Source: a virus. Taken from it: a stretch of 64,000 bases of DNA. The DNA lies in IMG/VR virus record IMGVR_UViG_3300017605_000906, positions 5,397-69,396 of that record; one strand, written 5' to 3'. Shown here in pieces: positions 47,751 to 47,894 of this stretch (within the stretch, counting starts at the first letter, position 1; every line of letters starts with the position of its first letter). Made by a program: the position numbers and the translations under genes. Below the pieces are notes generated by a model that saw only the letters and a program-made list of their open reading frames with translations, searched no databases and was not told the DNA's origin.

Positions 47751-47894
47751 TGGGCACTGCGAGGAATTGAACCCCGTTTGGTGAGTCGATTTCCGCAGCT
47801 TCTAGGACCAGCGGCGCTAGGCAACCACGTCGACAAGTGGCCACTTCGCATCGACCTAGATAGACTCACACCATCAGACCTTACTCTCAGGCCC
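47751..47894 (-). ncRNA. tRNA-like RNA resembling the tmRNA tRNA-like domain
   Basis: GGGCCUG/CAG(U)GCCC acceptor, T-arm CGGGG-UUCAAUU-CCUCG, long helix UGGUG(U)GAGUC/GACUCACCA in place of an anticodon arm. Confidence 0.55.

What the first reader, a model, noticed from the sequence alone, without database searches (positions are those of the whole stretch)
47751..47894. 144-nt RNA with tmRNA-like tRNA domain but no room for a normal tag region
It has an acceptor stem with one bulge, an unpaired D-loop-like segment, a long helix replacing the anticodon arm that encloses further stems (CUAGG/CCUAG), a 2-nt linker and a canonical T-arm. This is the topology of the tmRNA tRNA-like domain at under half the usual length. 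It starts 7 nt after the CCA of the tRNA-Ile gene, so the two are likely co-transcribed. There is no G3-U70 and no encoded CCA after the discriminator. Inference: a tRNA mimic or decoy for SmpB, EF-Tu or anticodon nucleases.
Basis: partly seen in the sequence, partly recalled or inferred. Interest (0 to 1): 0.7.

Follow-up and report, generated by a model that had tools for sequence, protein, structure and literature searches.

The report
Orphan tRNA-like gene in a phage
A 144-base stretch of a phage genome keeps the stem, the ends and one arm of a transfer RNA but carries about 70 extra bases where the anticodon should be, so it cannot read codons; it resembles the long-known, still unexplained small RNAs beside phage T4's tRNA genes, and no relative was found that could show whether it works or is decaying.

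Summary
On the minus strand at 47894-47751 there is a tRNA skeleton. It has a 7-bp acceptor stem with one bulged U, a weak D region, a perfect 7-bp helix in place of the anticodon arm that encloses 75 nt, a canonical T arm and discriminator A. There is no CCA and no G3-U70. This is not chance: 24 of 200,000 shuffles gave both the acceptor and the stalk pairing.

It lies 7 nt after a second odd gene, a complete tRNA(AAU)+CCA split by a structured 54-nt D-loop insertion. Both sit in an accessory island between terminase and portal of a lytic-type tailed phage.

No tmRNA, Y RNA or tRNA model reaches its threshold. No single excision restores a normal anticodon loop. The phage encodes no SmpB, Ro60, RNA ligase or integrase.

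No homologue was found in any collection, so covariation could not be tested, and no sequencing run was available.

The closest known analogues are T4's rnaC and rnaD stable RNAs. Like them, it lies directly after a tRNA gene; rnaC also shares its size (139 nt), a T arm and the lack of CCA. Similar expanded tRNA-like genes recur in other phage tRNA arrays.

Best reading (0.45): a non-decoding tRNA-like RNA matured by tRNA-processing enzymes. Main rival (0.33): a decaying tRNA pseudogene.

The parts
47751..47894 (-). RNA2: the 144-nt tRNA-like gene (the finding)
   Evidence: Sequence; shuffle test; constrained fold; weak Rfam mascRNA-menRNA match on 47753-47815, 24 bits against a gathering score of 42.5, E 0.031
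47888..47894 (-). Acceptor 5' strand GGGCCUG
   Evidence: Pairs with 47752-47759; pair probabilities 0.98-1.0
47870..47887 (-). D-like segment (18 nt) with AAGG; only a weak AGUA/UGGU stem
   Evidence: Sequence reading; left mostly unpaired or paired differently in the MFE
47863..47869 (-). Stalk 5' strand GUGAGUC (tRNA positions 26-32)
   Evidence: Inverted repeat I8; pair probabilities 0.63-0.82
47788..47862 (-). 75-nt insert in place of the anticodon loop. Holds three CUAG, a 12-nt perfect palindrome AAGUGGCCACUU and GUCGAC
   Evidence: Not more stable than shuffles: z -0.22 alone, -0.74 with the stalk
47781..47787 (-). Stalk 3' strand GACUCAC (tRNA positions 38-44)
47760..47776 (-). T arm CGGGG-UUCAAUU-CCUCG
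   Evidence: One of only 2 matches to GGTTCRANYCC in the window
47752..47759 (-). Acceptor 3' strand CAG-U-GCCC with bulged U at 47756; discriminator A at 47751; no CCA follows
47895..47901 (-). 7-nt spacer AUUUUAU between the two genes
47902..48033 (-). RNA1: tRNA(AAU) gene with encoded CCA, split by a 54-nt insertion (48011-47958) between D-loop A21 and the 3' D-stem strand. The insertion holds an anticodon-like arm ACGGC-AUCUAGG-GCCGU (48004-47988)
   Evidence: - (z -2.57).
- 1,075 single-deletion variants called as tRNA, 571 with anticodon cta and 288 with aat.
- the junction without the insertion is a D arm found in 48 viral loci.
- insertion z -2.69.
47735..48040 (-). ORF101, an open frame across both RNAs; probably not a gene
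   Evidence: Codon log-odds -0.20, below all 172 coding windows. No homologue. A given frame is open in 1,032 of 100,000 shuffles
47166..47738 (-). ORF190, a Lys/Arg-rich repeat protein starting 13 nt after RNA2
   Evidence: phrog_7091 'HNH endonuclease', E 6.5e-8, on the repeat region only. No Pfam family. No HNH domain in the genome
48236..49801 (-). Large terminase, upstream in the same orientation
   Evidence: Pfam Terminase_6C; tblastn

Best explanation
RNA2 is a tRNA-derived gene that has lost decoding and now encodes a tRNA-like small RNA.

Anatomy (shown): an acceptor/T-arm 'minihelix' is joined through a fully Watson-Crick 7-bp stalk to a 75-nt insert that replaces the anticodon loop.

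How it is made (inferred from what is known of tRNA processing and of T4 tRNA precursors; recalled, not tested):
- It is transcribed with the upstream tRNA(AAU) gene inside the late minus-strand operon.
- Host RNase P cuts at G1. That cut also frees the 7-nt trailer of the upstream tRNA.
- The 3' end is trimmed to the discriminator A, and CCA is added by the host enzyme.

The minihelix would therefore serve as a handle for processing and stability. The insert would be the effector, or the whole molecule would compete for factors that read the acceptor/T-arm half of tRNAs.

Shown: the anatomy, that it is not chance, that it cannot decode, and that it does not look protein-coding.
Inferred: transcription, processing, stability and any function.
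For: 1. Skeleton beyond chance: both of the window's T-arm motifs lie here, and acceptor plus stalk arose in 24 of 200,000 shuffles.
2. The tRNA-like fold is within 0.4 kcal/mol of the MFE, and the acceptor pairs have probability about 1.
3. The stalk is Watson-Crick also at tRNA positions 26:44 and 32:38. From recall, not from a call, I expect these positions to be mostly unpaired or mismatched in working tRNAs, so the stalk looks like a continuous stem rather than a simple insertion into a loop.
4. The 5' end is placed exactly 7 nt after an encoded CCA, as in tRNA dimers.
5. The neighbour RNA1 also carries an insertion, yet all four of its stems are intact and its insertion is significantly structured (z -2.69, 2 of 200 shuffles). 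Insertion-bearing tRNA-like genes therefore seem to be kept here.
6. Codon usage of the overlapping ORF101 is unlike the phage's genes.
7. A direct analogue is known. T4 rnaC (139 nt) and rnaD (119 nt) lie 6 nt and 1 nt downstream of the preceding RNA gene, at the end of the tRNA cluster. rnaC ends in a canonical T arm plus an acceptor-like strand without CCA, and it has no Rfam family. Their roles are unknown (PMC3014915, passage read).
8. In 48 phage tRNA-array loci, 60 of 382 canonical T arms lie outside ARAGORN tRNA calls. The search for a 7/7 acceptor partner returned 34 distinct sequences of 67-258 nt; some of these overlap each other, the shortest are tRNA-sized, and the longest run across a neighbouring tRNA gene. 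Several are kept across related contigs, one with compensatory changes.
Against: - No homologue of RNA2 was found, so there is no conservation or covariation:
  - 50 viral and 48 metagenome terminase relatives, at most 52% identical, lack it.
  - Five exact-pattern scans drawn from RNA2 or RNA1 gave 0 hits, and one more from RNA1's 3' end in genomes also gave 0.
  - Searches with the ORF101 translation found nothing.
  - ORF190 relatives have no such RNA beside them.
- The insert is no more stable than shuffled sequence (z -0.22 and -0.74), and neither is the whole RNA (z -0.17).
- The acceptor has a bulge, the D stem is poor and CCA is missing, as expected for decay.
- The T arm has only 0.21 probability in the thermodynamic ensemble.
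- An open frame runs through the region, which happens in about 1% of shuffles for a given frame.
- There are no expression data.
Confidence: 0.45

Rival explanations
1. A decaying tRNA pseudogene. A tRNA gene acquired with the accessory island was inactivated by an insertion or replacement in its anticodon loop and is drifting. It may still be cut out of the transcript but has no selected role.
For: - Acceptor bulge, weak D stem, no CCA while the neighbour has one.
- The insert and the whole RNA are not more structured than shuffles.
- No tRNA-family model reaches its threshold.
- Orphan sequence with no relative in any collection searched.
- It lies in an island whose genes have no homologues in terminase relatives.
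Against: - The anticodon-arm helix (7 of 7 Watson-Crick pairs) and the T stem (5 of 5 pairs, one G-U) are unbroken, and the acceptor keeps all 7 pairs.
- The stalk is extended by two extra Watson-Crick pairs.
- Compact phage genomes rarely keep 290 nt of dead sequence (general knowledge, not tested here).
- The neighbour carries a different insertion with a perfect cloverleaf.
- Similar expanded tRNA-like genes are conserved in other phages.
Confidence: 0.33
2. An intron-bearing tRNA gene. The insert is removed and the halves are rejoined to give a working tRNA.
For: - RNA1 becomes a fully canonical tRNA when its 54 nt are removed.
- With the bulged U removed as well, a 70-nt deletion in RNA2 gives ARAGORN calls (atc, aat, att; 7 of the 15 variants called).
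- In other phages a tRNA(UAU) is interrupted in its anticodon by a 75-nt element whose exact removal restores the loop.
Against: - For RNA2, none of the eight single excisions gives a purine at position 37, and all give A34 (sequence reading).
- ARAGORN calls nothing after any single deletion of the real sequence.
- Too short for a group I intron, and no Rfam intron or ribozyme match.
- By hand I found no bulge-helix-bulge motif at any of the 4 possible registers of RNA1.
- No RtcB or RNA ligase in the phage.
Confidence: 0.06
3. A minimal tmRNA-like or ribosome-rescue mimic.
For: - The topology resembles the tmRNA tRNA-like domain: acceptor, unpaired D analogue, long helix, T arm.
- One frame of the insert reads VDAKWPLVDVVA followed by UAG, a tag-like length.
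Against: - G3-C70, not G3-U70.
- No ARAGORN tmRNA call here, even at a relaxed threshold.
- No Rfam tmRNA-family match at E <= 10.
- No pseudoknots in the predicted folds.
- No SmpB gene.
- A short frame that ends in a stop is expected by chance.
Confidence: 0.03
4. The region is protein-coding: ORF101 (47735-48040) is a real gene, and the tRNA likeness is a relic inside it.
For: - The frame is open over 101 codons across both RNAs. A given frame is open in 1,032 of 100,000 shuffles, any of three in 3,120.
- Its start overlaps the upstream stop (TAATG) and its stop overlaps the next start (ATGA).
- All four CTAG inside it are in the phase that avoids an in-frame TAG.
Against: - Codon log-odds -0.20, below all 172 windows of 101 codons taken from 27 phage genes (minimum -0.03).
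- No PHROG family.
- No homologue by tblastn against phages (best E 0.7), in viral contigs or among 5.8 billion protein clusters.
Confidence: 0.05
5. A DNA-level site, for packaging, recombination or protein binding, rather than an RNA.
For: - It lies next to the terminase genes.
- There are 5 CTAG within 250 bp, against 56 in 64 kb.
- A 12-bp perfect palindrome and GTCGAC lie in the insert.
- The 19 bp at 47752-47770 recur as a 12-mer and a 14-mer in inverted arrangement at 6586-6625.
Against: - No integrase or resolvase.
- The palindrome is not repeated elsewhere in the window: 1 exact match, and 2 matches within 2 mismatches against 1.98 expected.
- A DNA site does not explain the acceptor, stalk and T-arm geometry.
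Confidence: 0.05

Closest known systems
Phage T4 stable RNAs rnaC (species 1, 139 nt) and rnaD (species 2, 119 nt)
   Same: - Encoded at the end of a tRNA cluster: rnaD begins 1 nt after tRNA-Arg and rnaC 6 nt after rnaD.
- rnaC is similar in size to RNA2.
- rnaC ends in a canonical T arm followed by an acceptor-like strand without CCA.
- No Rfam family, only a weak tRNA-type match: tRNA-Sec, 17.5 bits.
- Function unknown (PMC3014915, one passage read).
- A homing endonuclease gene, segB, lies in the same cluster.
   Different: - No sequence similarity: blastn of RNA2 against 150 stored loci, T4 included, gave only a 22-nt hit over the end of the stalk, the linker and the T arm in a viral locus other than T4 (E 0.033), plus three 13-18-nt hits at E 4.8.
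- rnaC is strongly structured (z -4.57, 0 of 200 shuffles). RNA2 is not (z -0.17).
- In rnaC the expansion lies on the 5' (D) side and an anticodon-like hairpin remains. In RNA2 the anticodon loop itself is replaced.
- That RNase P matures the T4 RNAs is my recollection, not a call.
tmRNA tRNA-like domain
   Same: Acceptor stem, a D analogue with little pairing, a long helix where the anticodon arm would be, and a T arm.
   Different: No G3-U70, no encoded CCA, no pseudoknots, no model match, no SmpB, and less than half the length.
Bacterial and phage YrlA Y RNAs (Chen et al. 2014, PMC4201824; passages read)
   Same: A non-coding RNA that mimics tRNA. It has a T arm, some are encoded in phages, and one (M. 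smegmatis) is cut by RNase P and receives CCA.
   Different: - YrlA is encoded next to Ro60/Rsr. There is no TROVE protein here.
- YrlA's 5' and 3' ends form the Ro-binding stem and its 'acceptor' is a closed stem-loop. RNA2 has the opposite arrangement.
- The GNCGAAN0-1G motif is absent: the nearest string is UGCGAAG, which fails at the first position.
- No Rfam YrlA match at E <= 10.
mascRNA / MEN-beta tRNA-like RNAs (Rfam RF01684)
   Same: Best Rfam match: acceptor plus T arm over 47753-47815, E 0.031.
   Different: The score of 24 bits is far below the gathering score of 42.5. That family is vertebrate. The match uses an internal alternative 5' strand with one C-C mismatch. It shows likeness to a tRNA-like minihelix, not membership.
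Phage tRNAs that counter tRNA-cleaving defences (PMC10264068, PMC11464382, PMC11555353; search listing and start of abstracts only)
   Same: A phage-borne tRNA-type gene in a lytic-type phage.
   Different: Those are decoding tRNAs with altered anticodon loops. RNA2 has no anticodon loop and so cannot replace a cleaved tRNA.

Membership tests
Canonical tRNA | Detected by tRNA models (ARAGORN, Rfam RF00005) | tested here: not met
   ARAGORN found 0 genes in the window. Rfam gathering search found 0. RF00005 on the whole genome found 0 at E <= 0.001. No RF00005 match on RNA2 even at E <= 10
Canonical tRNA | 7-nt anticodon loop with U33 and purine 37 | tested here: not met
   The stalk closes on 75 nt. 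None of the 8 single excisions gives a purine at position 37 (reading). ARAGORN made 0 calls after all single deletions of 10-109 nt
Canonical tRNA | 7-bp acceptor stem, T arm with the UUCRANY loop, discriminator base | tested here: met
   7 pairs, but with one bulged U. T arm CGGGG-UUCAAUU-CCUCG. Discriminator A
tmRNA | G3-U70 alanine identity pair | tested here: not met
   G3 pairs with C (position 141 of the RNA)
tmRNA | Match to tmRNA models, with tag frame and pseudoknots | tested here: not met
   ARAGORN tmRNA: none by default. At -ps80, 30 calls, none overlapping genome 53147-53290. No Rfam tmRNA-family match at E <= 10. A 12-codon frame ending in UAG exists, but without pseudoknots
tmRNA | SmpB partner | tested here: not met
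   PF01668 gave 0 matches at E <= 1 in the six-frame phage genome. A host SmpB cannot be examined, because the host is unknown
YrlA / Y RNA | Encoded beside Ro60 (TROVE) | tested here: not met
   PF05731 gave 0 matches
YrlA / Y RNA | Ro-binding stem formed by the 5' and 3' ends, with the GNCGAAN0-1G motif; Rfam model match | tested here: not met
   The ends form the acceptor instead. The motif is absent (reading against PMC4201824). No Rfam match
T4 rnaC/rnaD-type tRNA-cluster stable RNA (defined by position, not by homology) | Directly downstream of a tRNA gene, 120-140 nt, T arm and acceptor-like 3' end without CCA | tested here: met
   RNA2: 7 nt after CCA, 144 nt. T4:
T4 rnaC/rnaD-type tRNA-cluster stable RNA (defined by position, not by homology) | Sequence or structure homology to rnaC or rnaD | tested here: not met
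   blastn gave no hit to the T4 locus L150
T4 rnaC/rnaD-type tRNA-cluster stable RNA (defined by position, not by homology) | Accumulates as a discrete stable RNA | not testable with these tools
   No sequencing run was listed
Archaeal-type (bulge-helix-bulge) tRNA intron | Two 3-nt bulges separated by a 4-bp helix at the exon-intron borders | tested here: not met
   Checked by hand on RNA1 in all 4 possible registers: none forms the 4-bp helix. For RNA2 no excision restores a loop. The phage's terminase is nearest to those of phages of Alphaproteobacteria (39%)
Phage attP with a tRNA 3' fragment | Integrase present; only the 3' part of a tRNA retained | tested here: not met
   No tyrosine or serine recombinase. 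The 5' acceptor strand is present

The most novel reading that the evidence does not exclude
Phages use the acceptor/T-arm half of a tRNA as a natural scaffold. RNase P and 3' trimming cut the molecule cleanly out of a long transcript and protect it. The anticodon arm is turned into a stalk that carries an unrelated 'cargo' RNA. RNA2, T4 rnaC and the expanded tRNA-like genes seen in other phage tRNA arrays would be members of one functional class. Examples include three paralogues in locus L128 that share the acceptor stem and a T arm differing at one loop base but have wholly different interiors, and a tRNA-like element nested in the anticodon of a tRNA(UAU). Their cargoes could act as decoys or regulators during infection.
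Probability: 0.2. Interest if true: 0.7.

Novelty: new variant of a known kind. Interest (0 to 1): 0.4.

Why it matters
If RNA2 is a working RNA, it adds a second, unrelated example to T4's rnaC and rnaD, whose roles have stayed unknown for decades (PMC3014915, one passage read). It would also point to a general design: a tRNA minihelix used as a processing and stability handle for another RNA. Standard annotation misses these genes. ARAGORN and Rfam call nothing here. In 48 other phage tRNA-array loci, 60 of 382 canonical T arms fall outside ARAGORN's tRNA calls. The size of this class is therefore unknown.

If RNA2 is only a pseudogene, the finding is ordinary. It would then mainly be a caution that gene callers may annotate the open frame across it as a protein.

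Tried and rejected
**Homologue searches, all empty for RNA2**
- Terminase-anchored loci: 50 viral and 48 metagenome, at most 52% identical.
  - ARAGORN found tRNAs in only 5 of the 50 viral loci, none like RNA2.
  - RF00005 on 4 whole relatives' records gave none over the cut-off; L052 was not held.
- Exact-pattern scans:
  - RNA2 3' end: 0 in viral contigs, and 0 in genomes with an optional bulge.
  - RNA2 insert: 0.
  - RNA1 CUA arm: 0.
  - RNA1 3' end: 0 in genomes and 0 in viral contigs.
- ORF101 translation used as a proxy for the DNA: tblastn against phages gave 4 records, best E 0.7. The search for related loci gave 16 pattern matches, none confirmed. The search of 5.8 billion clusters scored 4 candidates, none significant.
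- ORF190-anchored loci: 8 viral loci plus 2 GenBank phages. The only tRNA-type sequences were a tRNA-Met about 1.8 kb away in L151 and a tRNA-Lys 3' fragment 1.6 kb away on the other strand in L153.
- blastn of RNA1 and RNA2 against all 150 stored loci and against the phage's own genome.

**Other dead ends**
- Sequencing runs: none was listed, and no RNA holder was listed. Expression, ends and CCA addition therefore could not be examined, and read laying was not used.
- Earlier findings of this scan: none for this genome or sequence.
- ARAGORN at lowered thresholds gave hundreds of calls over the genome, which is noise. With introns allowed, its call of RNA1 as tRNA-Ala(cgc) treats the real anticodon arm as a variable arm, and I rejected it.
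- The insertions of RNA1 and RNA2 share only AUCUAGG (7 nt, E 0.82). That word is not over-represented in the window (4 found, 3.36 expected).
- Supplementary tables of PMC4201824 (phage YrlA list) and PMC10690425 (candidate viral structured RNAs) could not be opened. They might list a related motif.
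Full report
**Where it is**

The window is part of a 69,396-bp IMG/VR virus record estimated 93% complete. It is a tailed phage. Pfam finds a large terminase (48236-49801, minus strand), a portal (43086-44600), a tail tip protein, ThyX, a family A DNA polymerase and a gp32-like protein. It also finds RecA/UvsX-like and UvsY-like proteins, a clamp loader, a 5'-3' exonuclease, an SNF2 helicase and a TET-associated glycosyltransferase, plus a DnaB-like helicase and a radical SAM protein. 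No tyrosine or serine recombinase is present, so it looks lytic. The nearest cultured terminases, at 36-39% identity, belong to phages of Rhizobium, Roseobacter and Erythrobacter, with one Shewanella phage at 35.5%. Nearly all genes are on the minus strand.

The finding lies in the 3.6 kb between terminase and portal. In some relatives the portal follows the terminase directly. None of the nine ORFs in between has a homologue in 99 terminase-anchored loci. The segment is therefore an accessory island.

**The observation**

Read on the minus strand, 47894-47751 has the following parts:
- An acceptor stem GGGC+CUG / CAG-U-GCCC, with 7 pairs and one bulged U.
- An 18-nt D-like segment with AAGG but only a weak stem.
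- A perfect 7-bp helix GUGAGUC/GACUCAC enclosing 75 nt.
- A 4-nt linker (3 nt if one more G-C pair forms across a bulge).
- A canonical T arm CGGGG-UUCAAUU-CCUCG.
- Discriminator A, with no CCA after it.

It begins 7 nt after the CCA of the upstream gene.

It is not chance:
- The motif GGTTCRANYCC occurs only twice in the window, both here (0.53 expected).
- When positions 1-107 were shuffled, acceptor pairing appeared in 1,945, a partner for the stalk in 2,149, and both in 24 of 200,000 trials.
- The tRNA-like fold is 0.4 kcal/mol above the MFE, and the acceptor pairs have probability about 1.

Against this, the molecule as a whole (z -0.17) and its insert (z -0.22 alone, -0.74 with the stalk) fold no better than shuffled sequence.

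**What the detectors say**

- ARAGORN with defaults finds no tRNA or tmRNA in the whole window.
- Rfam at gathering thresholds finds nothing.
- At E <= 10 the only match on RNA2 is to the vertebrate tRNA-like mascRNA-menRNA family: 24 bits against a threshold of 42.5, E 0.031. That match is in effect acceptor plus T arm.
- No tmRNA, mt-tmRNA, YrlA, ribozyme or intron family appears.
- ARAGORN's tmRNA mode at an 80% threshold gives 30 calls over the genome, none here.

**The neighbour is odd too**

The 'tRNA-Ile' at 48033-47902 has a perfect acceptor, D stem, anticodon arm (loop CUAAUAA, anticodon AAU), T arm, A73 and CCA. However, 54 nt are inserted between D-loop A21 and the 3' D-stem strand (48011-47958).
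- Without them, the junction reads as a D arm that occurs uninterrupted in 48 viral loci, in tRNAs of six isotypes.
- The insertion is significantly structured (z -2.69, 2 of 200 shuffles).
- It contains a perfect 5-bp/7-nt hairpin with CUA in the anticodon position. As a result, ARAGORN single-deletion variants as tRNA(cta) and 288 as tRNA(aat).
- By hand I found no bulge-helix-bulge motif in any of the four possible registers.

**Can RNA2 be a split tRNA?**

ARAGORN calls nothing after any single deletion of 10-109 nt. Only when the bulged U is also removed does a 70-nt deletion give calls: atc, aat or att, 7 of the 15 variants called. Reading the sequence, every one of the eight ways to rebuild a 7-nt loop leaves a pyrimidine at position 37 and A at position 34. 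The helix is also Watson-Crick at positions 26:44 and 32:38, where (from recall, not from a call) I expect working tRNAs to be mostly unpaired or mismatched.

RNA2 is therefore not a tRNA with a cleanly removable insert. Its anticodon arm has been converted into a stalk. The phage encodes no RtcB or RNA ligase, no SmpB and no Ro60.

**Is it coding?**

An open frame of 101 codons (47735-48040) runs through both RNAs. It starts on the stop of the upstream ORF (TAATG) and ends on the start of the next (ATGA). A given frame stays open in 1,032 of 100,000 shuffles, and any of the three in 3,120, so this is unusual.

Its codon log-odds (-0.20) is nevertheless below all 172 windows of 101 codons from 27 phage genes, whose minimum is -0.03. 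It also has no homologue. I treat it as a chance or secondary frame. Gene callers may well annotate it as a protein.

**Relatives**

None was found. The list is under Tried and rejected. No sequencing run was listed.

**Comparison with known things**

The closest known case is in phage T4. There rnaD (119 nt) begins 1 nt after tRNA-Arg and rnaC (139 nt) begins 6 nt after rnaD. rnaC ends in a canonical T arm followed by an acceptor-like strand without CCA. It has no Rfam family and gets only a weak tRNA-type match. A review states that the roles of both RNAs are unknown (PMC3014915, one passage read).

RNA2 shares position, size and 3' architecture with rnaC, but not sequence. It is also far less stably folded (rnaC z -4.57).

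YrlA RNAs also mimic tRNA and occur in phages (PMC4201824, passages read). They are tied to Ro60, and their ends lie on the opposite side of the fold.

**A wider pattern**

The 48 viral loci fetched by the D-arm pattern (444 kb) hold 408 ARAGORN tRNAs and 382 canonical T arms. Of those T arms, 60 lie outside the tRNA calls. Five of the 48 loci carry a tmRNA call. The search for a 7/7 acceptor partner within 300 nt of an orphan T arm returned 34 distinct sequences of 67-258 nt. This count is an upper bound: some sequences overlap each other, the shortest are tRNA-sized, and the longest run across a neighbouring tRNA gene or a longer version of the same element.

Examples:
- A tRNA-like gene with a 33-nt 'anticodon loop'.
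- Three paralogues in L128 with the same acceptor stem, T arms that differ at one loop base, and unrelated interiors (102, 119 and 172 nt).
- A tRNA whose anticodon loop is split by a 75-nt element, present in 13 jumbo-phage loci. The element has its own 7-bp terminal stem and ends in GCCA. Removing it exactly restores the loop CUUAUAA. In L114 the element's stem carries two compensatory changes while the outer tRNA is unchanged.

Expanded tRNA-like genes are thus recurrent in phages, and at least some are under selection. This raises the prior that RNA2 is more than debris. My searches turned up no description of such a class beyond T4's RNAs and general remarks on 'tRNA-like' candidates in PMC10690425 (passages read).

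**Verdict**

- The anatomy is real, and it is derived from a tRNA.
- The tmRNA, SmpB and anticodon-nuclease readings are not supported.
- I favour (0.45) a non-decoding tRNA-like RNA that is cut out of the operon transcript by tRNA-processing enzymes. Its function is unproven.
- A young pseudogene (0.33) is nearly as likely.
- Spliced tRNA (0.06), coding ORF (0.05), DNA site (0.05) and tmRNA-like mimic (0.03) trail behind.

Noticed in passing
window 47902-48033 (-): The upstream 'tRNA-Ile' is a complete tRNA(AAU)+CCA interrupted by a structured 54-nt insertion in the D loop (48011-47958). The insertion carries a perfect anticodon-like hairpin with CUA (48004-47988). Standard tools miss the gene. 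An A34 isoleucine anticodon is itself unusual for bacteria (that last remark is from recall).
   Followed up: partly
window 47802-48051: Five CTAG lie within 250 bp, although CTAG is avoided in the phage overall (56 found, 107 expected). The four that lie inside ORF101 are all in the same phase.
   Followed up: partly
window 47735-48040 (-): A 101-codon open frame spans both RNA genes and overlaps the upstream stop and the downstream start. A given frame is open in about 1% of shuffles, but its codon usage is non-coding. It could matter for translational coupling or for protection from Rho termination. That idea is speculation.
   Followed up: partly
window 6586-6597 (+) and 6612-6625 (-): The last 19 nt of RNA2 (T loop to acceptor 3' strand) recur 41 kb away as a 12-mer in inverted orientation and a 14-mer in direct orientation, 14 nt apart, sharing the core CTCGCAG (blastn-short E 0.45 and 0.029). 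They lie in a small ORF with a zinc-ribbon-like Cys pattern (my reading of the sequence) and ambiguous codon score (-0.04). The 12-mer would pair perfectly with RNA2's 3' end. Unexplained.
   Followed up: partly
window 47166-47738 (-): ORF190, 13 nt downstream of RNA2, is a Lys/Arg-rich protein with repeats of a W..N.E motif. It matches a PHROG named 'HNH endonuclease' only over the repeats, and no HNH domain is present in the genome. Its codon usage is atypical (-0.16). In phage MW202615 its homologue lies between an HNH endonuclease gene (with one small ORF between them) and an RNA ligase gene.
   Followed up: partly
L106:418-569 (-), L114:10571-10723 (-), L126:542-693 (-) and 10 further loci: In jumbo-phage contigs, a tRNA gene is split inside its anticodon by a 75-76-nt tRNA-like element with its own 7-bp stem and a GCCA end. 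Exact removal restores the loop CUUAUAA (UAU). L114 has two compensatory changes in the inner stem while the outer tRNA is identical. I know of no description of this.
   Followed up: partly
L128 (about 2000-4000, - strand): Three tRNA-like genes of 102, 119 and 172 nt share the acceptor stem (AGTCAGG/CCTGACT) and have T arms that differ at one loop base, but have unrelated interiors. Further expanded tRNA-like genes lie beside them.
   Followed up: no
L127, L135, L140, and L106 (T arm at 921-937, - strand): A 99-nt tRNA-like gene (acceptor GGGAACT/AGTTCCC) whose anticodon stem closes on about 33 nt. It is conserved with 1 substitution among the contigs. Its architecture is the most similar to RNA2.
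   Followed up: no
L032:5500-5620 (-): In a distant terminase relative, a class-II-like tRNA-type sequence with a T arm lies just past the terminase gene and is not called by ARAGORN. L028 has tRNA-Ser and tRNA-His there, and L029 and L030 have tRNA-His.
   Followed up: no
window 53057-54010 (-); L149:1781-2806 (-): A TET-associated glycosyltransferase (E 1e-46) and a radical SAM/SPASM protein suggest that this phage hypermodifies its DNA. No TET/JBP gene was looked for.
   Followed up: no
L150:1909-2047 (-) (phage T4 rnaC): T4 species 1 RNA folds far better than shuffles (z -4.57, 0 of 200) and ends in a canonical T arm. Rfam holds no family for it.
   Followed up: partly
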